A model generated the notes under the pieces. The model worked only from the letters and a program-made list of their open reading frames with translations, did no database searches and was not told where the DNA came from. DNA of 63,967 nt, filler included, from Phoronis australis (lineage: Eukaryota > Animalia > Phoronida): assembly GCA_002633005.1 (NCBI GenBank). It is 6 parts of 6 records of this genome, joined end to end, with 100 filler letters (N's around TTAATTAATTAA, not from the genome) between each part and the next. Parts side by side here need not be neighbours in the genome. Positions count along the whole stretch, not along the records: positions 30,210 to 41,757 come from NMRA01000064.1; 5 more parts are not named here. One strand, 5' to 3'. Position 1 is the first letter of the stretch. Every line of letters begins with the position of its first letter. A program made the position numbers and the translations under genes. Below, piece after piece: positions 9,775 through 47,446 of this stretch.

Positions 9775-10540
9775 TTAATGTAGAGGTCCAGTTGTCGTAG
9801 AGCACTTGGTAGGTTGTCTACTCTACTCCTCCATTTCTACGAACTCACGCATTCCTCTGATTGCCGATGTGCCAACCAGCTCAAACCGATAGCAAATTTG
9901 CTTGACTTCGTGTTCGCCATGTTTTAATGCCGGATCCCATGGGCCACGTTCTTGTGTCCAAGATGCCCAGAATAGAGCAAAATGACTGCTCATCAATGTC
10001 AAGCCAACGCAACTCCAAGTTCGCAACATGTTTTTATAAATTACACAGGAAGTATGGTCACGCGCGCAGGAATATTCGGTAACACTGCTGTCGCCAGCAT
10101 AGCAGTGCATCGATACCGTTAGGCAATGACATCGCCCTGGATGCCACAGCCGCAGGCATACAGGTACGATAGTACATCCCCACAAAAAGTTATTCATTTC
10201 AAAATACAGCAAATAAAATCAAATGAACCATACATATAGGAACATGGAGTTATAATTAACACATACCATTACTCTAGATACAATTTAGACAGCAAAACTT
10301 GAACAAATCAATGAAAATCTGTCGCGGTTTGCTCAAGTTTCTCTTACCGGGTGCCATTTTAAGAAAGTTACGTGAAATCACGCATGTTGACGAATAAAAA
10401 GTCCAAAGGACACAAATCTTACAAATTTCAACTGATACCTTCTCATGCTATTTTGCTAGTGTCACGCGCTAGTGTCACGCGCTTCGTTCAGTCTCGCGCT
10501 AGCCTTTGCCTAACTCACGTGACTCAGTTGACCTACTTAA

Positions 10541-12189
10541 GGTTATCGCGCGCGTGGTGAAAAAGTTAACAGAAACCAAAGAAGTGGAATTGGAATTTTT
10601 CGCCAAAGTCACGATAATTCTCACAACTAAACTTCGCAGAAGATATGTATAGAAGTAGAAAGGACCAATGAAGAAAGTAAGCGCTTTTTTAAGTGATAAT
10701 TTTAAGCGTGAAATGTATTTTTGACGAGGTGAAAACTCAAAATCGGTGACCGGATTTGGGTTACTGCCCGTTTAAAACACTTGTAACAAAATGCGTACAG
10801 AAAGTGAATGGAAGTACTGTAGCCCCTAAATGGCCAACCGAGGGGCTACGTGTTGCCTACGATACCGTAAGCTATTGTATCAAGACTACGCCCCACTATA
10901 CAGTCACTTACTGTGCGTAGGCGCTACGTTAAGATGTAAAAAGACGTTTGGCTGAGCATGCACCCTACTATAACGTAACAGGCCGTGTGTAGGCGCTATG
11001 TTTAAATGCCAAAAGGGTGGTTGGCTGCGTCAGCGTGCGCCTATGCCCCACGGAAGGCTATATGACGCTGTACAACAGCATATTCAGAATCACTTTCAAA
11101 AAAGTCGTAACCAAATACTTCAAGTTTTTAATGGCTCAGGTAATTTATTTAACAAAGACACACGTTGATTGTGTGAGGAGTTTAAGCCAAAAGTAGTGGA
11201 ACGAGACTTGGAGAGAGATTACGTTTTCCCAAAATATTATAGACTGACGGTCGAAATTTGAAACATTTAGGGGAAGCTGGGCCTGTATGCTGGACGTGTT
11301 TAAACACTTCTGTAATTATGGGTCTCATTTTAGAAACTACCTATAGATTGAACAACGGTTGCCTTGAACGGCAAAGTTGAATTTCCAGACTGGCGATCAT
11401 GAAACACAAAGTTCAGGGTACGAAGTTGAATCGCTTATATTTTTCTTCCAGTGCCCTAGAAAAATGTCTAATATTGGACAAGTTCGAAACACCGTATCTC
11501 AGAAATAACTGATCGTATTCACACGAAACTTTTAGATACTATATGCTTTTTACAATGTTTTACAAAACTCTGCTAGAAATTGTTTTCAAAATGTTCCACT
11601 TTTGCATAAAAATAGGACTTGTATATTATGAAAAAATCAAAGTTGCCTAAAACGGAAACGAGGCGATAATTTAGAAAACTGAAAGAGCATTTTTCAGATT
11701 TCATGTTCAACATTTTCATCATGTAAATTTGGTCATGTTACTGATCCTGTTGTTTTTGCTATGAATGAACATTTCTTTTGTGACATTTTTTCTAAAAAGC
11801 AAGACCCCATGACCTAACTAGTGGTAGATTGGTATAAAGTTTGAGGAGACAGTGTAGCTCAATGGTTTGAGCACAGAATTCCCTTTGGGAAACCCGGTTC
11901 AAATCCTGATTTTACTGGCAAATGCATCATTTAACAAAGATGTCTCCTACTCCTCTGAGTTAGGTGCTACTAGTGAACGTATGCAATGGAGTGAACGAGA
12001 ACTTGATATAATGCGGAAGTGGTTTTGGGACAGTGCTCATATTTTTAATAGGTTTGAATTTAAATATCAAATTTTACATGATTTCCACTTTCAGAAAAAT
12101 GTGCACTTTTTCTGAGATAAAATCTATAGATTTGTAAATATTTTGCTAAGCACACACTATCAGACTTGTCGATAAGGTCGCACATAACT
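10541..12189. mobile_element. Kolobok-like non-autonomous DNA transposon (TTAA-flanked)
   Basis: TTAA|GGTTATCGCG ... CGCACATAACT|TTAA: short imperfect TIRs with RR..YY termini and a TTAA TSD. The duplicate is at about 13852-15488. Confidence 0.5.
11844..11990 (+). mobile_element. tRNA-derived SINE (also at ~15144-15290)
   Basis: Pol III A box TAGCTCAATGG (~11855) and B box GGTTCAAATCC (11896-11906) are at tRNA spacing. There is no acceptor stem, and a SINE-like body follows. Confidence 0.6.
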
Positions 12190-13398
12190 TTAAGTGTCAG
12201 ACAAGTGGACGGTAATTGAAGTGTGATTTCGCGGGCGGGCAGAAACACATGAATCGTTTTATTCGTTTCAGAATAACTGACTACATATATATTTTTTAAT
12301 ATTAAGATAATTGATCAAAACCGATAAAAGACAAATATGGACCTAAGAATCAAAAATGGACATAATGGGTCAGAGTGGATAAAATGGATTAAACTGGACA
12401 AAACTGACACAATGAGTAAAATTTGGAAGAGATAAACAGGATTGTAAAATGGAAATAACGGTCACAACAGACATAACGGGTCAGAACATACGTCACATTT
12501 CATTCGTTGAATGCCGGGTTTCCAAAGTAGAATGAAACCACTCAATGGAAACTGAGAACGTAAATTTAGATTTCCAGCCAACAGGTGGCCTTGATGACAA
12601 ATTTCCACAAATCACAAACCGTTAAAAGATCGATTGCCTAGGCTCTTTCCCAATCCAAAGTTTTGTCCTCTCCAGGAGGCGACGGATAGAAGCCAGTTAT
12701 CTCTAACGAAGCTAAGTCATCCCTTTTATCCGCTCTTGCGTGTGTATTCCACAATTTAGGCGCGAGTCGTCCGGTATGTATGAATCGTTAAAAANAACTC
12801 TGAAGTCGAAGTCCAAGCGGCCACAGTCTCAGCGATGTGTGGAAAATCACCAATTTACCTTCAATTCAGACCCCTTTTCACTCACATTTTATGCAAGTAC
12901 AACCGTGCAGGGGTACATGACTGGCCCCAGTTAGATTCCCGGTTCGGAAATTGATCTGAGTCGGCATTTACAACAGTTGTTCAGTAACATTTACAATTTG
13001 ATTCAGAAACGCCTAAATCATAAATCGCGAGCCACCATGTTTACAAAAGCGCCGTCTACCGAGCAAAAGGATAGAAGTGAACTACTTTCGCGCAGGCTAA
13101 TGTACTCCATATGAGTAAGATAATACACACCGTGTTGACTTACGTAGTAAATGACCCTCGCTGGTTCCGTGCGTGTAGAGAACACGCAGGTAGCACGCGC
13201 TTCATTACTGTTTGATGTAACCTCGGCAGTCATTGGTTATCTTCAACAATGAAAGAAAATGGCGGACCAGGAACGATTATCACCCTCGTACATACATGTG
13301 GCATAACTGTAACTATTTCGTTTTTACAGCCGAGGCTGAAGAATACAATGGTAAAGGGTCTTAAGGGTACGGACATTATAGGTGGTGCTGTGTCAGAG

Positions 13399-16094
13399 GG
13401 TAACACTGCTGTCGCCAGCATAGCAGTGCATCCATACCGTTAGGCAATGACATCGCCCTGAATGCCACAGCCGCAGGCATACCGGGACGATAGTACATCC
13501 CCACAAAAAGTTATTCATTTCAAAATACAGCAAATAAAATCAAGTGAACCATACATATAGGAACATGGAGTTATAATTAACACATACCATGACTCTAGAT
13601 ACAATTTAGACAGCAAAACTTGGTCAAATCAATGAAAATCTGTCGCGGTTTACTTAAGTTTCTCTTACCGGGTGCCATTTTAAGGAAGTTACGTGAAATC
13701 ACGCAGGTTGACGAATAAAAAGTACAAAGAACACAAATCTTACAAATTTCAACTGATACCTTCTCAAGCTATTTTGCTAGTGTCACGCGCTAGTGTCGCG
13801 CGCTTCGTTCAGTCTCGCGCTAGCCTTTGTCTAACTCACGTGACTCAGCAAGGTTATCGCGCTCGTGGTGAAAAAGTTAACAGAAACCAAAGAAGTGGAA
13901 TTGGAATTTTTCGCCAAAGTCACCCTAATTCTCACAACTAAACTTCACAGAAGATATGTATAGAAGTAGAAAGGACCAGTGAAGAAAGTAAGCGCTTTTT
14001 TAAGTGATAATTTTAAGCGTGAAATGTATTTTTGACGAGGTGAAAACTCAATATCGGTGACCGGATTTGGGTTACTGCCCGTTTAAAAGGCTTGTAACGA
14101 AATGCGTACAGAAAGCGAATGGAAGTACTGTAGCCCCTAAATGGCCAACCGAGGGGCTACGTGTTGCCTACGATACCGTAAGCTATTGTATCAAGACTAC
14201 GCCCCACTATACAGTCACTTACTGTGCGTAGGCGCTACGTTAAGATGTAAAAAGACGATTGGCTGAGCATACGCCCTACTATAGCGTAACATGCCGTGCG
14301 TAGGCGCTATGTTTAAATGCCAAAAGGGTGGTTGGCTGCGTCAGCGTGCGCCTATGCCCCACGGAAGGCTATATGACGCTGTACAGCAGCATATTCAGAA
14401 TCACTTTCAAAAAAGTCGTAACCAAATACTTCAAGTTTTTAATGGCTCAGGTAATTTATTTCACAAAGACACACGTTGATTGTGTGGGGAGTTTAAGAGA
14501 AAAAGTAGTGGAACGAGACTTGGAAAGAGATAACATGTTTTCCCAAAATATTACAGACTGACGGTCGAAATTTGAAACATTTAGGGGAAGCTGGGCCTGT
14601 ATGGTGGAAGTGTTTAAACACTTCTATAAGTATGGATCTCATTTTAGAAACTACCTATAGATTGAAAAACGGCAAAGTTGAATTTCCAGACTGGCGATCA
14701 TGAAACACAAAGTTCAGGGTACGATTTTGAATCGCTTATATTTTTCTTCCAGTGCCCTAGAAAAATTCCAATATTGGACAAGTTCGAAACACCGTATCTC
14801 AGAAATAACTGATCGTATTCAAACGAAACTTTTAGTTACTATATGCTTTTTACAATGTTCTGCATAACTCTGCTAGAAATTGTTTTCAAAATGTTCCACT
14901 TTTGCATAAAAATAGGACTTGTATATTATGAAAAAATCAAAGTTGCCTAAAACGGAAACGAGGCGATAATTTAGAAAACTGAAAGAGCATTTTTGAGATT
15001 TCATGTTGAACATTTTTATCATATAAATTTGGTCATGTTACTGATCCTGTTGTTTTTGCTATGAATGAACATTTCTTTTTTACATTTTTTCTAAAAAGCA
15101 AGACCCCGTGATCTAACTAGTTGTAGATTGGTATAAAGTTTGAGGAGACAGTGTTGCTCAATGGTTTGAGCACAGAATTCCCTTTGGGAGACCCGGTTCA
15201 AATCCTGATTTTACTGGCAAATGCATCATTTAACAAAGATGTCTCCTACTCCTCTGAGTTAGGTGCTACTAGTGAACGTATGCAAGGGAGTGAAGGAGAA
15301 CTTGATGTAATGCGGAAGTGGTTTTGGGACTGTGCTCATATTTTTAATAGGTTTGAATTTAAATATCAAATTTTACATGATTTCCACTTTCAGAAAAATG
15401 TTCAGTTTTGCTGAGTTAAAATCTATTGATTTGTAAATATTTTGCTGAGAACACACTATCAGACTTGTCGATAAGGCCAAACATAACTTAAAGTGTCAGA
15501 CAAGTGGGCGGTAATTGAAGTGTGATTTCGCAGGCGGGCAGAAACACATGAATCGTTTTATTCATTTCAGAATAACTGACTACATATATATTTTTTTAAT
15601 ATTAAGATAATTGATCAAAACCGATAAAAGACGAACATGGACCTAAGAATCAAAAATGGACATAATTGATCAGAGTGGATAAAATGGAGTGAACTGGACA
15701 AAACTGACATAATGAGTAAAATCAGGAAGAGATAAACAGGATTGTAAAATGGAAATAACGGTCACAACAGACATAACGGGTCAGAACATACGTCACATTT
15801 CATTCGTTGAATGCCGGGTTTCCAAAGTAGAATGAAACCACTCAATGGAAACTGAGAACGTAAATTTAGATTTCCAGCCAACAGGTGGCCTTGATGACAA
15901 ATTTCCACAAATCACAAACCGTTAAAAGATCGATTGCCTAGGCTCTTTCCCAATCCAAAGTTTTGTCCTCTCCAGGAGGCGACGGATAGAAGCCAGTTAT
16001 CTCTAACGAAGCTAAGTCATCCCTTTTATCCGCTCTTGCGTGTGTATTCCACAATTTAGGCGCGAGTCGTCCGGTATGTATGAATCGTTAAAAA
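13399..16094 (+). repeat. Copy 2 of the ~2.7-kb direct duplication
   Basis: Matches 10078-12794 with scattered substitutions and small indels. Confidence 0.95.
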
Positions 16095-23289: not shown

Positions 23290-24354
23290 TATCTGCTACC
23301 CAGCGTCGTCGTCAGCTAGGAGTCCATCTTCATCGTGGGTTTCGACATTGACCTAGAACCCTCTCCGATGGTAGGTCTCTGAAGGCTGATCAGACCTCCA
23401 GCCGACGCTGGGGTCGCCATTTGTTCTGACGCTGTAACCACAGCCACACGGTTGCTTCCTCCGCTGCTCTTACAGTAGACTTAAACATATCAGCTCGCCC
23501 TCTTGATGAAATGCCCAGTAGCTTCGTCATCCACCACATGCTTCCAGCAATAAACCCTCGACATCCAACTTCTATGGGGATACAGAAGCATTTCCAGCCT
23601 TTCGCTGCACATTCCTGCGATAGCTCTGCGTACTTGAGTAGTTTCCTCTCGTGAGCCTCTTGCACCCTAGTCTCCCACGGCACAGTTAACTCTATCAAAG
23701 TCACTATCTTCTTGCTGTCTGCCCACAACACTATGTCTGGTCGTAACTGGGTTACTGCAATATGGCTTGGGAATGAACCCCTAGTTACCACATCCGTCAC
23801 CATCTTCCAGTCTGCAGCCATACCTAGAATGCCTGAATCACGCCTCATAGTGGATACCCCGCCTTTATTGACCTGCAGCTGTCATCCTCAGTTTTGCCCC
23901 ACGTTCGAAGATTGACAGGTGTTGGGAGAGTGTCATACATGGAACCAGGTAAAAAGCCCAATCTGAATTGGTCTGAAGACAGAAGGTCTTTACCAGTTAT
24001 CCTTCTGGTGTTCACTCCTTCCCATGATGTCCATGCACCCTGTTTCCTCAGTCCGACCGCTTCAGCATACCTTCTCTCGTTCTCCTGGGATCTAACTTCG
24101 TCCAAAACCATTTTGCGCCTCTCTTTGCCTGTTGACAACTTCCACCTCTTCCCCGGAACCATTCCCAATCGCTGTCTTCCATGGCAGACGGTTCCCACGA
24201 TATCTTTATGCCGTAACCTGCTCTCTGCCTCCTCCACTGCTACAGCAGCCTTCCACTTTCTTCCAGAATCTACCGATAATTCACTCTCTCTGATCATCTC
24301 ATCTCTCGAGTTCCGCAGAGTCAGTAATGTTCTGCACTTTATATTAATGTGCAC
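23290..24354 (-). mobile_element. 5'-truncated RLE-type non-LTR retrotransposon (HERO-like), internally deleted
   Basis: Post-RT region (GRKWKA..AVEEAESRLRHKDIVG; QGAWTSWE; YDTLPTPVNLRTWG), then a frameshift/deletion through the CCHC knuckle, then a PD-(D/E)xK endonuclease (RPDIVLW...LIELTVPWE...ERKLLKY...PIEVGCRGF). Confidence 0.85.
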
Positions 24355-24455
24355 TTTACAAAATGGTTTAAATTGTTTGAGGTGAGAATTGATCCCATTC
24401 TACAATATAGGTCTGAGATTTGATGCTGGTGACGTCATTGACGGGGTACGTAGCA

Positions 24456-24805
24456 CAGTGCTGTAGTGGTAAAATTAGAGGTAAGTAGGCGCCCAATGCC
24501 CACCCTATCACCTTGAGCACTGAATTTTAAAAGTGCATTGAATCGGCGAAACCTGAATCACAAACATGTAGGACTAATTTTTTGACTCACGAGTGGGTTT
24601 TTACTTTGAGTCTGCAGTGGTGAATCTTGGATGGCGCAGAAAGGAGCCCAACCAAACAGGAAGGCAAAGGTCCGCGGGCATTCCAAGCAGTCTGAAGGGG
24701 GGTAGGGCGAACACAATTTTAAAGGAAAATAGACGCGTAACGCCCAGAAACGATATGCTGGCGGCGTTTGAGTGGCCCATGGGGTGTGTCCTCGGGGTCC
24801 CGTTC
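24456..24805 (+). mobile_element. Second copy of the 8547-8919 element
   Basis: Colinear similarity starting at CAGTGCTGTAGTGGTAAAATTAGAGG. Confidence 0.7.
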
Positions 24806-25392
24806 AGACAACTATTTTTGAAACACAGGCGAAATTTAAAGTCTTTCATCCCGATACAGTTTTCAAATTCTCCGCCCCTAATAATCTATATGCGCACTGC
24901 ATGCCCTCAAAATCTAAGGTCAGACTAAGGACGGATTGGCTGCTGCTTGAAATCGTCATTGTTTTATTTACATTAAATGTCAAAGGTCACATTTTCCATA
25001 TTAGCAGGAAGTGATAACCATGTTATCTCTTCCTGATATTAGGTAAATGTGCTGCGTTTATGTCTTGCCATACCAAATAAGGAGACGTGCCTTACCCTAT
25101 GGGAGAAAAATCGACTAAGTGACGAGGAATTTTTGGAATTTGAAATTAAAAGAAAAATGCCTTGACATCAACAGAGATTCAAAGTTTTTAACAACAAACC
25201 GTAAATTAACAGTTTGGCTTCTGTTTCACTGGCAGTGAGTCACTTTGAATGATGCAATTTAGTCCGTTTTTCACATTCTATGCCACTTTAAATCGAGCCC
25301 GGTGTGTGAGGGCTGCATTTTTAGCCCCATTAGATATCCAAGCCATCACATGATAATTGATATGGGTCGTTGGGGGGGGGGGGCCTTGATGC

Positions 25393-30109: not shown

Positions 30110-30209
30110 NNNNNNNNNNNNNNNNNNNNNNNNNNNNNNNNNNNNNNNNNNNNTTAATTAATTAANNNNNNNNNNNNNNNNNNNNNNNNNNNNNNNNNNN
30201 NNNNNNNNN
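30110..30209. other. Artificial scaffold-joining spacer
   Basis: N44-TTAATTAATTAA-N44, which places stops in all six frames. Confidence 0.97.
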
Positions 30210-31571
30210 TGAAACAGAATTCCAACAAGCCGACTGATAATGACCCAGCTTTCCACACTTGAAACACCTGGGAGGAGGATTAGAAGATCTTCCCAGAGAT
30301 GAACTCGGTGAAACTCTTGGTGAAGATGGAGAAGGTCGCTTCGGCGACTGTGTCTGTAACATTGCAAACAACTTGTTAAAATTGTTTGATACTTCCCTCC
30401 GATTTTCTAAAAGGTCAGACTTTAACTCATCCATCTTCTTATGAAGCTTAGCATTGTCAGTCATAAGGAATGAAACCGACGCATCTAAGTCATTGCACCT
30501 ACCCTCAAGAACATCTAATCGAGACTCTAAGGAGCTACGAGGAATGAACTTAAGAGCTGGCTTCTTGGTTACTTGGCGAACAGCAACTTCATCTCCTTCC
30601 ATATTCCCTTCTCTACAAAAAGATACTGACTTCGGTGAATTGGAAGTAGCCATCAAGTCTTTGGTTGTTGAAAACCACCTAGCGGCATTCAAGGCAGCCA
30701 TGAGTGTACTTGGTCGACTGTTTATAGCCAACTGCGCAACCTCTCTATCCTGTAGACCTAAACAGAACCGAAGAACCGCCTGAGCTTTATCAGAGTCCCT
30801 CGCCTCTGGAAAGGCCAACAAGAATAAACTTGTAAGACGGTCAGCCCATTGTTCTAAGGACTCGTCAGAAGTCTGCTTGGCTGACTGGAACCTAAGTTGG
30901 TGCACTTCATTGCACTCGACATCTGCCCCAAAACGATAGGTCATATGATCCACAATTTGGTCGAAACTTGAGTGTGGATGAGCTTTAACATGGTTGAAAA
31001 ACCAACGAGAGGCATCACCTTCCAAGCACATGCCCAGCTCCGTTCTACATTTTTGACCTGACCAAAAATTGTCTCGGACAACATTACTGAATTTCCATAG
31101 AAAGTCCTCCCATGTACCTAACTTGCCACTAAAGATTAGGTTGCGTGGGAGACGTGACAGGTAATGAGTGCCAGAGCCAGAGGGCGTAGGTGACATGCTA
31201 GTATGCGAATGAGACTTTGCATAACCAACGCCACTACCAGTCTTTGACGACGGAGTCAGTTTAGCTGCCAACTTGGAAAATGAATAGTCAGGGCTAGAGG
31301 TAAGTATTGATGAGGTTTTCTTACCATATTCGTCACAAACCTTGACTACTTCCTCCAAATCTTCTGGCAGACCGCATGGGACTGTAAAGTCTATGGAATT
31401 CTGTACAGTCTTGGTTGGCTTCCAACTGGAATGTATCTTGCACACATTCTCCGGAGTAATAGCTAATATTGCTCTGAAGTCCATAACTGCAGCAGCAACA
31501 TCAGGAGTCATACCCGGAAGGTCCAACAGTGTTGTAGCGTCACAAGAATTGATAAGAATCTTGGACGTCAT
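30210..31571 (-). CDS. gag: Ty3/Gypsy Gag with an N-terminal helix-hairpin-helix-like domain, 3'-truncated by the contig end
   Basis: Uninterrupted frame of about 454 codons. HhH-like INSCDATTLLDLPGMTPDVAAAVMDFR; capsid motifs FSGK..WEDF..KF and CLEGDASRWF; MHR-like FQSAKQTSDESLEQWADRL; coiled coil; CCHC knuckle CFKCGKLGHYQSAC. Confidence 0.9.
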
Positions 31572-31867
31572 TATAAGGTGCCAAAAATAGGTGTGGCACT
31601 AGGGAAATAGTAAGTCTGCAAAGACTGAAATAGTAAATATCAATACCAAAAAAGATACTAATGGTTATTATATTTACTAGACAAAAATGAAAAATGAAGA
31701 ATGTAATAAGCGAAACAGCTGAACACCCGTGTTCAGTGACCTACCCGCTACGACACGGGTGGTACCGAGCGACAAGGAAAAACAAGTCCACGAAAGTTAT
31801 TTTGAACTACGCGCTTCTCGGTGTAAAGGTAGAAACTGCACGTAGCAACTACGCCAAATGTTGGGAA

Positions 31868-31990
31868 TTATACAGGAGCTGAAACAGTTTTGGATGGTGT
31901 TTCCTTACCGTAACTGTCAACCAACTCTACAACTTTAGCTAAATCTTCTGGCAGACCAGACGGGATGGAGAAGTCGATGTGTTTCTGCAT
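31868..31990 (-). CDS. 40-aa leader mini-ORF homologous to Gag residues 56-94
   Basis: MQKHIDFSIPSGLPEDLAKVVELVDSYGKETPSKTVSAPV*. The ATG overlaps the PBS end. It matches Gag VQNSIDFTVPCGLPEDLEEVVKVCDEYGKKTSSILTSSP at 21/39 positions without gaps. The homology is clear; translation is unproven. Confidence 0.6.
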   Translation of the reverse strand: MQKHIDFSIPSGLPEDLAKVVELVDSYGKETPSKTVSAPV

Positions 31991-32006
31991 CCTGCCAACT
32001 ACGCCA
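31989..32006 (-). promoter_or_regulatory. Primer-binding site (tRNA-Ser)
   Basis: TGGCGTAGTTGGCAGGAT lies 2 nt after the LTR end and is complementary to the tRNA-Ser 3' end ATCCTGCCGACTACGCCA (one G:U pair). Confidence 0.85.
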
Positions 32007-32008
32007 AA

Positions 32009-32423
32009 TGTTTTGACTTGATACACAGGTTCTCGTGCAGCTTACCTTTACTCATATGAAAGCTTGAATACACGCTTGAGTTGAAGACCCACAAACGCAG
32101 ACGTCCTGCGTGCAGCAGTGCCACACGAACAGAGAGCTCTCGATTCCCCAGTCACGTGACAAAACTAGAACTTACAACATCCGGCCACTGACGGAAACCC
32201 ACGGACGAACACGAACACACAAGACAATACGAAAGACGAGACCACACAAACCAACATTCACAACAATAGCAATTCTTCGGAAAAAGATTTTTTTTTCAAA
32301 AATATTACATGTACATGTACACAATATTACATGTACATGTACACTGTATGATACTGCGCAAGACAACTTTACTATACATCAGTTGCAAACGTGTGGAGTG
32401 TAATATAATGACACGGCATAACA
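32009..32423 (-). mobile_element. 5' LTR of the Gypsy element (415 bp)
   Basis: The minus strand runs TGTTATG ... CAAAACA (TG..CA with a short inverted repeat) and is immediately followed by the PBS. The 5' boundary is inferred from the inverted repeat only. Confidence 0.7.
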
Positions 32424-33026
32424 GATGAGGTNCATTATGAAAAATAAGAACTATACTACGAAAAATGCTAGAGTAACTAAAACCTATATGGCCGGATTTC
32501 CAAAAAAAAAGCTAAATACTTCACAAAAGTACGTGACTGGGGATACTTGAAAATTTGAAAAATACTAGTTACAAGGTACATATGGTCAAAAAAATTAAAC
32601 TTGTGACAAGAAGAATTTACTGTACTATATATTTAGAAAAAAAAAAACTATTAACATTTGGACCATATGAAGAAGTAATGAACACAGAACATATAGTGCA
32701 CAAAACAACATGCAACAGCAAGGTAGCACAGTAAGCTACTACAGAAAATTAACAGATGGTGGACAGAACATGAGGTCTGCTGGTTGCGTGACCTCACGGT
32801 TAATAATGAAACAAAAATCAGGATCTGCGGACTGTTTAGCGTAAATATTTAAAACATTTGGAGATGTTGTATTGTTATAAATAAAACAGCCATCAGGTTT
32901 CAGATCAAACTTTTCATTATCTGCACCATCTGAAGCAATAATGCCGGACAGACCGAAATCTGTCTCGTCAAGGTCACATGGAGAAAGTGACTGAGTAGCC
33001 AGTGTAGGGTTGGAGAATAAACAACC

Positions 33027-42888: not shown

Positions 42889-44473
42889 CATGCTATGAAC
42901 ATTCGCACTAAATAAAATTGGTTCTAACCCCGGTGTTTAAGGTAAACGGCGGGGTATGGAAAATTGAACTAGACCGTATTTACATGCTATGAACATTCCC
43001 ACTAAATAAAATTGGTTCTAACCCCGGTGTTTAAGGTAAACGGCGGGGTATGGAAATTTGAACTAGACCGTATTTATCCACCTTGGCTGAGACGCGCTCG
43101 GCTCATGCTCAAAGGGATGCCGCCAAGCTGCTCTATTCATCGAGTCACGAGCGAGGATAATTGACTTCGCACATGCGGATATGATCAGCTGATTACAGTC
43201 TAGCCTAACAACAGTACTTTTTATGGAGAGAAGTTTACATAGTTTTTACTGTAATATTTGAAAAGAGGAGCGAAAACAAATACGAATACAACTTTGAATT
43301 TTTCAAATCGGCCCAGGATAAGAGATTTTGCAACACAGAAACACTCACGATTACTTTCATTCGGCGCGCACGAATACAAAAATATAGGACCCAAGTTAGG
43401 ATTGTATAAATGTAGAACTACTCCGTGTGTTATTTAGGTTTTGGAAAAAATGCATTTTAATACTCAAAATACGTTTTGTATAGCTATTACAAGCTCTAAA
43501 ACGACTTTGTGTAATTTCATTGAGATCGTTCTTTGTCATCCGTCAAACCGGAAACTTCCGAGATGTGACTCTGCGAGCGCACTCACCTTGCACGTTACAG
43601 CCGTTTAAGTGAAAAACAATCTAGTAAACGCCATTTTCTTGCATAATCCTCCGCCTTTTGTAACAAAAAAGTCTATCGTCGATGACCCGCACACGCACGC
43701 TCACTCACTCTCATACGCAGACGACCTTCAAAACAAACGTCACGTGACAACAACATGTGTGTTCATCCAGAGATTTTTCTCGTGTTGTGGAGTACGATGT
43801 AGCGCACATTTGGACTTAATCGCAATTAATCTGGACTCCACAGGAACTTTAAAAATTGTAAAACATCAGGAAGATTTCAGGTAATTTGTTGAGTCGAAAC
43901 TATATTTTTATTCAAGAGTACAAGTTTTCCTATTGACGATCGCGATTCAGCGACGCATCAGTCGGCAAGTTTTCGCCCTGTGATGAGCACAATTTTTTGA
44001 AAAATTATCGTAATTTAACAACGGAAGTTGATAGCAATGCACCACAATTTTGTAGAAAGGCTGTCATAGGCTACAAATACGTCACAGAGCGTAAATTTGA
44101 TGAATCCTAGCTTCCGATTTTACCCGTTTGGGAAACCGGGTTTCAACTGCCGTAGGCTCACTACAATAAGCGTCCCCTCCCCGTGAAATGAATTTTTCTA
44201 AGCGTTTGTTTGAGCCAATACAGTATACAGCTTTCCACCAAGGCTAGGTGATGCAAGACATTATTACTTGTTCTTTGTTGCATTATAGTAACTGGTCTTG
44301 GCTAATTATCATTTTATGGCCTGGTCATCCATTCAGCCCAAAGTAGTTCCAGAGGTGGCTTATCAGCCAATTATTCACGCATGCTGACTCACAATAGAAG
44401 CCTGATAAGAGTGAAGGTGGATAAATGCGGTGTTCCTACAGTTTCTTGTTTTAGTGGATGTGTTCACAACATG
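42889..44473 (+). mobile_element. Non-autonomous TIR DNA transposon, copy A (94-bp duplicated left end)
   Basis: Termini CATGCTATGAACA ... TGTTCACAACATG; 42889-42982 is repeated at 42983-43076. It is inserted within Penelope codons H-K-K-T with an apparent 2-bp TC duplication. Confidence 0.75.
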
Positions 44474-44866
44474 TCTTATGAAATACTGATGTTATCACTG
44501 AGGTACCCTCACGCTCCACTAACATGTCCAGAAATGGCAAAATGTTGTCGACCTCTAATTCTATACTGAATTTCAAGTTAGGATGCCTCTAGTTTAAATA
44601 CACCAAAAATTCCAGACTGCAGACTGGCAGACTGCTGATTTTCAAATATACAAAACACATCATCTACATATTGTCGGTAGAAATAGACATGAGGACCAGT
44701 GTACATCTCAATCCATGTTTTCTCATGTTGTAAACACATCCACTACCACAAGAAACTGTAAGAAAACCACATTTATCCACCTTCACTCTTATCAGGCTTC
44801 TATTATGAGTCGTCATGCGTGAATAATTGGCTGATAAGCCACCTATGGAACTACTTTTGGTTGAAT

Positions 44867-44901
44867 CAATGAGCTATACCAGGTCCTGGTATAGCTCATT
44901 A
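44867..44901. mobile_element. 35-bp palindromic insertion with 7-bp TSD
   Basis: GTTGAAT|CAATGAGCTATACCAGGTCCTGGTATAGCTCATTA|GTTGAAT; absent from the paralogous site at about 45248-45254. Confidence 0.75.
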
Positions 44902-45596
44902 GTTGAATAGATGGCCAGGCCATAAAATGATAATTAACCAAGACCTAGCTGCATGGAATAGTTAATACCTTCATGGCAATTTTGAAAGAGTGGGCATCTG
45001 CTAGTTTTTCGCTGAAAGTGTTTTAAAAAAACTTGGTTTACCGACCTCTGATTTTATGAATTATGCAAACATTGAAATTCAAACATGCAACGTTTTCATT
45101 TCTGCCATCATCATGTTGTGAACACATTCACTACCACAAGAAACTGTAGGAACACTGCATTTATCCACCTTCACTATAATCAGGCTTCTATTGTGAGTCA
45201 GCATGCGTGAATAATTGGCTGATAAGCCACCTCTGGGACTACTTTTGGCTGAATGGATGACCAGGCTGTAAAATGATAATTAGCCAAGAACAGTTACTAA
45301 TGCAACAAAGAATAATGTCATGTGAGCATTACCTAGTCTTGGTTTATAGCTGTATACTGTATTGGCTCTAATAAACGCTTAGAAAAATTCATTTCACGGG
45401 GAGGTGACGCTTGTTGTAGCCTACGGCAGTTGAAACCCGGTTTCCCAAATGCGCAAAATCGGAAGCTAAGATTCATCAAATCTACGCTCTGTGTCGTATT
45501 TTTAGCCTATGGCAGTCGTTCCACAAAATTGTGGTGCATTGCTATCAACTTCCGTTGTTAAATTACGATAATTTTTCAAAAAATTGTGCTCATCAC

Positions 45597-45934
45597 ATAG
45601 CGCAGAAGCGTGGCTTTCTTGCGCGGATCCCGAGTAATGTTCTTTGCCACCACATAATTGTCAAGTCGCTTAATCCACAATTCCCAACGGGAACCAGCCG
45701 ACTCCGTGGGATGAAGAATAAATGGTTTAACCGCAAGATCTTCCATTTTTATCCTCGTCGCCAAAATGTTGTGTTCGTAGAACCAGTAAAACAACACAGA
45801 TGAGAGTAATATATAGTACGTCTATTCACTTGCAGAACTAATGCAAGAAGGGGACGAGCACGTGGCCTCTGGGCATTAATACCACGTGACTATATTCTAA
45901 GGAAAACCACAAGTAGCATTGCCAATACACAACA
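45597..45934 (-). mobile_element. Gypsy (Mag-like) 5' fragment: 168-bp LTR, PBS and gag start
   Basis: LTR 45767-45934 has a perfect TGTTGTGT/ACACAACA inverted repeat. PBS TGGCGACGAGGAT (tRNA-Ser) is at 45751-45763. The ATG at 45746 starts MEDLAVKPF...WELWIKRLDNYVVAKNIT...KKATLL. Confidence 0.8.
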
Positions 45935-47446
45935 TCATGTTGGGGACGAGGTGAACTACCCGGGCTGCATGAAATTTCTGGATCTAACGCAGTGGTACCT
46001 ATAGTCAGCCACCTCGCTGTATCAAGACTATCGTCAAAATCCAAATTTGTTTTATCGTGTCCCTGTCAATAAATAACGGCATGCTAAAGTTTCTTAATGT
46101 TCGTACTTCAGGAACATAAGGATCCTGTTTTGTATACATATGCGCACGCCGCTGATCACATCTCGGAAATTTCTGATTTGACGGATGACAATGAATGACC
46201 ACAATGAAATTGAACAACGTCGTTTTACATCTTGGAAGAGCTATAATAAACGTATTTTGAATATTGCAAAGCATGTGTTCCAAAATCTAAATAACGGGTC
46301 CTATATTTTTGTATTCGTGCGCGCCGAATGAAAGTAATCTTGAGTGTTGCTGTGTTGCTAAATCTCTTATTCTGGGCCGATTTGAAAAATTCAAAGTTGT
46401 ACCAACATTTTTTCTCTCCTCTTTTCAAATATTACACTCAAAACTACCTAAAACGCTCTTCATAAAAAGTACGGTCATCCAGGCTAGATTGTAATCAGGT
46501 GATCGTATCCGCATGAGAGAAGTCAATTATCCTCGCTCGTGACTCGATGAATAGAGCAGCTAGGCGGGATCCCTTTGATCGTGAGCTGAGTGCAACGCAG
46601 CCAAGGTGGATAAATACGGTTTAGTTCAATCGGCCAAACCCCACAGCTTTCCCTGATCAGTGGGGTTGTGACGTCATCTTGTTTAATGGGAATGTTCACA
46701 GCATGTCATGGTGACCTAAAAACATGCCGGCTGCCAAAACAGATTAATATCTCAATACCACTGTAAAAAGTGATTCAATTATTTGACATTCACTGATTTA
46801 TGTAATAACTGAATCCACAAAAAACTGCAATTTAGCATTCTAGATGTATAGATGAGAAACATTTCATGTACAGTTAGTAATCTGCAAAGCTTCTGAAAAT
46901 TTTCTCAGCTCCAATAAATTTAATGAATTTCATCATTCTTTTCATTAAATGAAATCTGAAAAATCCAAAAAACAATTCTATGTGCCCAAATACAACCACT
47001 ACCCAAGGTTCCACAACATAGAAAATATTTTCCTATAGCTTGATTTACAATTCAGGTAAACCTGCCAGTGGTCTTTTATTTCGTAACTATCTCATTTAAA
47101 TCACTTTGAAAATAATCTTTTGTACTATTTTTTCTATTATGAATGTATCCTTGCTACACTTTCACTTAAATCACACAAGACTGAGCCCTACCAGGAAAGT
47201 GAGATGTTGATCATTTCACACCTGTTGTCTGGCAAGTCTATATGCACAAACCAGGAAAGCTTGGAAAAGTTTATCTTTGAATTGAGGTGTTTGATGAGGA
47301 AGTCACAAGGATATCATAACCAAGTATTTATAGAATGTGAAACCAGGCTAAGTGTCAAATAACACGTATGACCAAGTTTTATAGTGATATCAAGGAAACA
47401 GTTTAGATAAGCTATAAAGAATACTCAGGTATGTGAGTCAGCAGCC

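What the first reader, a model, noticed from the sequence alone, without database searches (positions are those of the whole stretch)
31846..32012. Gypsy leader holds a PBS-repeat-flanked cassette encoding a 40-aa mimic of its own Gag
Seen: on the minus strand the 17-mer AACATTTGGCGTAGTTG (LTR end + start of the tRNA-Ser PBS) occurs at 32012-31996 and again exactly 150 bp later at 31862-31846. Almost the whole interval is an intact ATG-to-TAA ORF (31990-31868), too short for the ORF track. It aligns without gaps to Gag residues 56-94 (nt 31406-31290) with 21/39 identity. At least nine identical residues use different codons (ata/atc, ttt/ttc, cca/ccg, ttg/tta, gta/gtt, gtc/gta, tat/tac, acc/aca, tca/tcc), so the sequence diverged under protein-level constraint and is not a recent self-duplication. 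Inference: it is either (a) a gag fragment captured from a related element at the LTR-PBS junction in a repeat-spacer-repeat layout, or (b) a maintained uORF/decoy peptide that regulates Gag or interferes with competing elements. The second idea is conceptually like the Ty1 Gag-derived restriction factor p22 but differently built. I do not know of a description of this arrangement.
Basis: partly seen in the sequence, partly recalled or inferred. Interest (0 to 1): 0.85.

Follow-up and report, generated by a model that had tools for sequence, protein, structure and literature searches.

The report
Sister-family gag caught between primer sites
A jumping gene carries a 135-base piece of a related element's coat-protein gene between two copies of its primer site; this is likely a one-off copying slip by reverse transcriptase rather than a working mini-gene.

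Summary
In detail: the 17-mer occurs twice 150 bp apart, and the 40-codon frame matches Gag 56-95 at 21 of 40 residues (2,000 shuffles: best 12). Public reads of the same species show its source. A sister element's gag matches 31991-31857; it leaves the window at both ends of that stretch and, on the 5' side, rejoins this element's gag in exact register. Copies without the cassette exist in RNA and DNA. The ATG and 6-7 of the 17 letters of the second repeat lie inside the sister-matched stretch. None of 19 RNA reads at the stop codon has the window's base. So the synonymous divergence (dN/dS 0.37) is that of two sister gag genes, not selection on a peptide. Best reading (0.72): two reverse-transcriptase template switches at 3-nt and 6-7-nt microhomologies during the second strand transfer left a fossil of inter-family capture. 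How many copies carry the cassette is unmeasured; none was positively seen outside the window. Reading (a) is supported; reading (b), a maintained decoy peptide, is not.

The parts
32009..32265 (-). 5' LTR, 257 bp, TGTT...AACA
   Evidence: Loose ends with mixed flanks at 32265 (agreement 0.44-0.71, four runs) and at 32009 (0.51, X6); termini read
31989..32006 (-). First primer-binding site, 18 nt, two bases after the LTR
   Evidence: Position and TGG start shown by the sequence. The 18-nt length and the tRNA-Ser match are recalled, not tested (searches found no tRNA gene to compare)
31857..31991 (-). 135-nt segment matching the gag of a sister element; overlaps PBS1 by 3 nt and includes the first 6 letters of the second repeat
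   Evidence: joints 31991 to 31444 and 31446, loose ends at 31991 and 31857; register arithmetic
31868..31990 (-). 40-codon frame; ATG inside the sister-matched segment; stop base not seen in laid reads
   Evidence: table 3, row 31869
31846..31856 (-). Second primer-binding site, 11 nt, continuous with the family's normal leader
   Evidence: joint 31844 to 31994 in RNA reads, joint 31863 to 32026 in a DNA contig
31572..31845 (-). Leader of the element
   Evidence: Between PBS2 and the gag ATG; covered in all four runs
30210..31571 (-). gag, 453 codons up to an assembly gap; weak N-terminal HhH, capsid-like region 181-298, CCHC knuckle 435-449
   Evidence: Retrotrans_gag E 2e-5 (above cut-off), zf-CCHC 0.0017, HHH_3 0.029, Ty3_capsid 0.05
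31287..31406 (-). The element's own gag codons 56-95, homologous to the cassette
32266..32431 (.). High-copy repeat into which the element appears to be inserted
   Evidence: Summed contig depth up to 72,215 in X4 against about 1,000 in gag; a uniform other continuation at 32263 in RNA reads

Best explanation
The cassette is a 135-base piece of a sister element's gag gene lying between two primer-binding sites of a Gypsy-like retrotransposon, likely put there by two template switches of reverse transcriptase in one replication round and likely without a selected function. Inferred steps: minus-strand synthesis ran through the leader and PBS to the end of the element's RNA. It then switched, at a 6-7-nt match between the LTR end and sister gag codons, to a co-packaged sister RNA and copied about 135 nt. 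The plus-strand strong-stop DNA (LTR plus 18 nt copied from the tRNA primer) then paired with it through a 3-nt match instead of PBS to PBS. The product is LTR, long PBS, gag piece, short PBS, leader. The ATG is read as an internal Met of the sister gag, and the stop as a later substitution in this lineage. Shown: the donor, both borders, the overlaps, and cassette-less copies. Inferred: the RT route, co-packaging, the tRNA origin of PBS1, and lack of function.
For. (1) Four X4 contigs (depths 113.2, 35.5, 30.2, 24.8) and one X3 contig leave the cassette at 31991 and rejoin this element's gag at 31444 or 31446 with 36 or 38 letters between, exactly the numbers a colinear gag gives. RNA reads do the same (X6: 2 joined, 10 loose; X7: 4 joined, 9 loose). 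(2) Twelve X6 reads leave at 31857 with one uniform continuation. (3) LTR joined straight to leader: 8 X6 reads (5 starts), 2 X7 reads, and one X4 contig (31863 to 32026), so the LTR and leader belong together without the cassette. (4) X4 depth inside the cassette adds up from those four contigs plus one of depth 106.9. (5) At 31869, 14 of 14 X6 reads, 5 of 5 X7 reads and the one contig in each DNA run differ from the window. (6) The cassette-less joint skips 149, which fits a family PBS of about 13 nt, shorter than PBS1. (7) Both families occur in the same RNA samples. Precedent: template switches yield insertions and duplications (PMC3187697, passages); second-strand transfer can go astray at the PBS and m1A58 ends plus-strand synthesis (PMC12657518, passages).
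Against: No read or contig bridging either junction was shown either way; one search hid 588 pieces, 159 loose ends, 548 variant rows and 2 joints, and contigs drop rare variants, so copy number of the cassette is unknown. The RNA samples are other individuals than the DNA sample and may lack the insertion. The tRNA match of PBS1 is recalled. One X4 contig matches the PBS side through 31992 and joins the gag start, so a relative with a longer PBS could have supplied the extra bases. Non-homologous recombination is at least 1,000-fold rarer than homologous (PMC3187697, passage), and two such switches are needed. The ATG has an A at -3, so the frame could be translated.
Confidence: 0.72

Rival explanations
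1. The same structure arose at the DNA level: a templated insertion during break repair at the PBS, or a sister element nested at the PBS and later deleted down to 135 nt.
For: Microhomologies of 3 and 6-7 nt also fit end-joining. A relative with a longer PBS exists in X4 (joint 31520 to 31992). A 149-bp insert at an LTR/PBS boundary with a 26-nt flanking duplication was read as an integrase-type insertion in cqgypsy_1 (PMC3286476, section 13 and passages).
Against: The LTR upstream is the family's own (cassette-less joints). No sister LTR, target-site duplication or other sister sequence is visible. The 5' border falls at the end of an 18-nt PBS, where plus-strand synthesis is expected to stop.
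Confidence: 0.13
2. The cassette is an assembly or library chimera of two related elements.
For: The assembly is gapped (15 N runs), the element ends in a gap, and no bridging record was displayed.
Against: The overlaps are only 3 and 6-7 nt, too short for a graph mis-join, and two junctions would be needed 135 nt apart. The X4 and X3 contigs over 31869 both end 13 letters away, at the 3' junction, as expected if the graph forks there; a nearby variant could also explain that end.
Confidence: 0.08
3. The capture founded a sub-family in which the cassette is kept, as a repressive upstream frame on gag or as a peptide or RNA that interferes with the sister family.
For: The frame starts 3 nt inside the captured segment with A at -3, is out of frame with gag, and is closed by a stop. 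A duplicated PBS can spread, as in HIV-1 MAL-type isolates (PMC3185550, passage). Cassette copy number is unmeasured.
Against: 0 of 19 RNA reads at the stop carry the window's base (95% upper bound 15%). Twelve of 45 codons of this frame are one change from a stop, and the window differs from all or nearly all laid reads at several other listed positions, so a chance stop is unremarkable. The piece lies outside the capsid-like region that p22 uses. No tandem-PBS match in metagenome contigs and no protein relatives, both weak blanks.
Confidence: 0.07

Closest known systems
Non-homologous template-switch products of retroviral reverse transcription, including aberrant second-strand transfer in HIV-1 (PMC3187697, PMC12657518; passages)
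   Same: Foreign sequence placed directly after the PBS; junctions with short or no homology; one replication round suffices.
   Different: The HIV inserts seen in the passages are tRNA read-through joined to a deletion. Here the insert is gag of a sister family (63% nucleotide identity to the own gag), nothing is deleted, and the PBS is doubled.
cqgypsy_1 of Culex quinquefasciatus, Osvaldo lineage (PMC3286476; section 13 and passages)
   Same: An insert of about 150 bp at the 5' LTR/PBS boundary of a Ty3/gypsy element, flanked by a short direct duplication.
   Different: Its insert is a tRNA dimer, the duplication is 26 nt of LTR, and the authors suggest integrase-type insertion. Here the duplication is the PBS plus a chance-looking microhomology.
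HIV-1 MAL-type partial PBS duplication (PMC3185550; passage)
   Same: A second, partial PBS downstream of the real one.
   Different: A 23-nt insertion spread through 14% of isolates, with no captured foreign coding sequence described in the passage.
Ty1 p22/p18 restriction factor (PMC4599808 and others; search listing with abstract starts only)
   Same: Gag-related sequence in addition to full Gag.
   Different: [quoted passage not shown] This piece is 40 codons from the pre-capsid region of another family's Gag and is missing from other copies.

Membership tests
Ty3/Gypsy LTR retrotransposon | LTR with TG...CA ends followed at once by a PBS | tested here: met
   257-bp LTR 32265-32009, TGG-starting site two bases later
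Ty3/Gypsy LTR retrotransposon | Gag with capsid-like domain and CCHC knuckle | tested here: met
   Retrotrans_gag above its cut-off; zf-CCHC and Ty3_capsid below theirs
Ty3/Gypsy LTR retrotransposon | pol order protease, RT, RNase H, integrase; second LTR and target-site duplication | not testable with these tools
   The element ends in an assembly gap at 30209; no whole genome is held. The clade is therefore not assigned.
RT template-switch recombinant | Donor is another retroelement present as RNA | tested here: met
   Sister-gag reads in RNA runs X6 and X7 beside reads of the element's own family
RT template-switch recombinant | Short sequence matches at both junctions | tested here: met
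   3 nt at 31991-31989; 6-7 nt at 31863/31862-31857
RT template-switch recombinant | 5' junction at the tRNA-copied end of plus-strand strong-stop DNA | tested here: inconclusive
   Position fits 18 nt; no host tRNA gene was available to compare; tRNA-Ser label recalled
Ty1 p22-type Gag restriction factor | Sequence identical to part of the element's own Gag, covering the capsid C-terminal half | tested here: not met
   21 of 40 identical; maps to residues 56-95, upstream of the capsid-like region 181-298
Ty1 p22-type Gag restriction factor | Encoded by the family's ordinary copies | tested here: not met
   Cassette-less copies in RNA and DNA; 0 of 19 RNA reads with the stop base
Ty1 p22-type Gag restriction factor | Trans-dominant inhibition of transposition | not testable with these tools
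   Needs a bench assay
CRISPR-like repeat-spacer array | A repeat independent of the spacer, duplicated whole | tested here: not met
   6 of the 17 letters of the second repeat lie in the sister-matched segment
CRISPR-like repeat-spacer array | Several or variable spacers among copies | tested here: inconclusive
   One unit here; no other spacer among the rows shown, but most rows were hidden

The most novel reading that the evidence does not exclude
The second strand transfer of Gypsy elements is a repeatable spacer-acquisition route: elements pick up pieces of co-packaged rival RNAs between duplicated primer sites, carriers spread, and the captured piece (as an upstream peptide or as a source of small RNAs) tunes their own Gag or suppresses the rival family. 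This would be a repeat-spacer memory in a retrotransposon leader.
Probability: 0.06. Interest if true: 0.85.

Novelty: new variant of a known kind. Interest (0 to 1): 0.3.

Why it matters
As it stands it is a well-resolved fossil: both junctions can be read, and they point to RNAs of two gag families about 37% divergent in this region meeting in one reverse-transcription event. That bears on how retrotransposon families exchange sequence and on how extra primer sites arise. It also shows how a captured coding fragment mimics a selected mini-gene. It would matter far more only if cassette-bearing copies proved to be amplified or to carry varied captures.

Tried and rejected
Recent self-duplication of own gag: rejected (76 of 120 nt; a closer donor exists). 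dN/dS 0.37 as evidence for a peptide: rejected, since it compares two gag genes. Protein searches: no candidate for the 40-mer at 22-70 aa; 0 of 9 candidates at longer lengths; 0 of 360 for Gag 1-140; the 2 hits among 1.84 billion representatives were repeat-driven and unrelated. Tandem-PBS pattern with a 118-148-nt gap: 0 matches in metagenome contigs. Gag in metagenomes: 1 weak 22-residue hit of 94 candidates, not used. PBS-like patterns in viral contigs: 1 and 42 matches, no tRNA gene in any of 43 loci, so the tRNA label stayed untested. No listed holder of the stretch is on record as RNA; not used as evidence. Rfam: no match at gathering level near the cassette (6 weak microRNA-like hits in the upstream repeat). 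RNA fold of 32030-31800: z -1.3, not special. Single-sequence model of Gag 1-120: mean pLDDT 39.6, unusable. Atlas look-up of the 40-mer gave no answer. No complex prediction was run, since no binding is claimed. Paper searches listed no description of a gag fragment between duplicated PBSs; only listings were screened for most hits, and no supplements were opened.

Full report
Observation. The 17-mer is at 32012-31996 and 31862-31846 on the minus strand and nowhere else in the window. The frame 31990-31868 has 40 codons. It matches Gag 56-95 without gaps at 21 of 40 residues, against a best of 12 in 2,000 shuffles, and at 76 of 120 bases, with ten synonymous codon pairs.

The element. Loose read ends with mixed flanks put the LTR at 32265-32009, 257 bp with TGTT...AACA ends. 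It sits directly below a very high-copy repeat. The gag frame has a Retrotrans_gag match above cut-off and weaker CCHC, Ty3 capsid and HhH matches. It ends in an assembly gap at 30209, so pol, the second LTR and the clade cannot be checked; no whole genome is held.

The donor. Eight runs of one species label were listed; four were laid on 30215-32431 at 80% likeness: two DNA runs of one sample and two RNA runs of two other samples. Four X4 contigs and one X3 contig match the cassette, leave it at 31991 and rejoin the element's own gag at 31444 or 31446 with 36 or 38 letters between. The cassette-to-gag register predicts exactly 36 and 38 for a colinear gene. RNA reads show the same joint (2 in X6, 4 in X7) or loose ends at 31991 (10 and 9). 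At the other end 12 X6 reads leave at 31857 with one uniform continuation; that it is further gag is inferred from the colinearity on the 5' side. So 31991-31857, 135 nt, is part of a sister element's gag.

The normal form. Eight X6 reads (5 starts) and 2 X7 reads join 31844 to 31994, and one X4 contig joins 31863 to 32026: LTR, one PBS, leader, no cassette. The skip of 149 fits a family PBS of about 13 nt if nothing lies between, which the tool marks as not known. The LTR and the leader therefore belong to one family, and the sister piece is an insertion between two PBS copies.

The junctions. An 18-nt PBS1 would span 32006-31989 and overlap the sister-matched segment by 3 nt, which include the AT of the start codon. 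The 18-nt length and the tRNA-Ser label are recalled; no tRNA gene was available to test them. At the 3' end 6 letters of the second repeat lie inside the sister-matched segment, 7 counting the base at 31863 that cassette-less contigs also match. Only 11 letters are a true second PBS.

The mini-ORF. The ATG lies inside the sister-matched stretch. At the middle base of the stop, 14 of 14 X6 reads, 5 of 5 X7 reads and the single contig in each DNA run differ from the window. The window likewise differs from all or nearly all laid records at several other listed positions (for example 31815, 31816, 31949, 32013, 32228), so it looks like a copy with its own substitutions. dN/dS against the own gag is 0.37, as expected from two gag genes diverging before the capture. 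The ATG has A at -3 and is out of frame with gag; three other ATGs lie upstream in the LTR. If this copy is transcribed, the frame could lower gag translation in cis, but nothing shows selection for that.

Mechanism. The order LTR, long PBS, foreign piece, short PBS, leader is what a failed second strand transfer would give. Minus-strand synthesis reaches the PBS at the end of its template, switches at the 6-7-nt match to a co-packaged sister RNA, copies 135 nt, and meets the plus-strand strong-stop DNA through 3 nt. Template switches are known to give insertions and duplications, and non-homologous ones are rare (PMC3187697, passages). Aberrant second-strand transfer at the PBS and termination at m1A58 are described for HIV-1 (PMC12657518, passages). 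Co-packaging is a condition for recombination in retroviruses (PMC5086612, passages). These steps are inferred here, not shown.

Against and open. One search displayed no record bridging either junction, but hid 588 pieces, 159 loose ends, 548 variant rows and 2 joints, and contigs drop rare variants. X4 depth at 31949 (310.5) equals the four departing contigs (203.7) plus one contig of 106.9. That contig, and one in X3, ends 13 letters from 31869, at the 3' junction; this may mark a fork towards PBS2, meaning the cassette form exists in that sample, or only a nearby variant. One X4 contig matches the PBS side through 31992 and joins the gag start, so a longer-PBS relative could have supplied the extra bases. 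The number of cassette-bearing copies is thus unmeasured, which leaves an amplified sub-family (0.07), a DNA-level origin (0.13) and a chimera (0.08) open.

Comparison. cqgypsy_1 has a 149-bp insert at its LTR/PBS boundary with a 26-nt flanking duplication (PMC3286476, section 13 and passages). HIV-1 MAL-type isolates carry a partial PBS duplication (PMC3185550, passage). [quoted passage not shown] Passages of PMC12789967 and PMC10886601 added nothing specific. Five paper searches listed no description of this exact arrangement. An earlier scan note on repeated LTR-end/PBS junctions in another genome (e1-7217699) is an unchecked lead that extra primer sites may recur; it is not support.

Verdict. 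A real, neatly readable chimera: a new variant of a known kind of reverse-transcription error, with no evidence for a maintained decoy peptide. Interest 0.3.

Noticed in passing
window 31571-31473 (minus), Gag residues 4-33: The Gag starts with a ComEA-like helix-hairpin-helix motif: Pfam HHH_3 E 0.029, below cut-off; Atlas top hits 0.85, ten of ten in that family or clan, a lead only. One paper search listed a single paper, not opened.
   Followed up: partly
window 32059 and 30571; 31363-31426; 30273-30344: One search shows joints in DNA contigs, two of them also in RNA reads, that suggest internally deleted or diverged relatives, including gag joined directly to LTR sequence.
   Followed up: no
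window 32266-32431 and upstream: A very high-copy repeat with a GTACAT-type palindromic core lies directly upstream of the LTR and seems to be the insertion target.
   Followed up: partly
window 31811-31831: About 12 of 20 X6 reads in the leader share several differences from the window, suggesting an expressed sub-family.
   Followed up: no
window 23390-24959 (minus): Broken frames that look by eye like the C-terminal part of a non-LTR retrotransposon protein (label recalled, not scanned).
   Followed up: no
window 10078-15891 and 43020-46667: A tandem duplication of about 3.3 kb at 93-97% identity, and a long nested inverted repeat at 84-94%.
   Followed up: no
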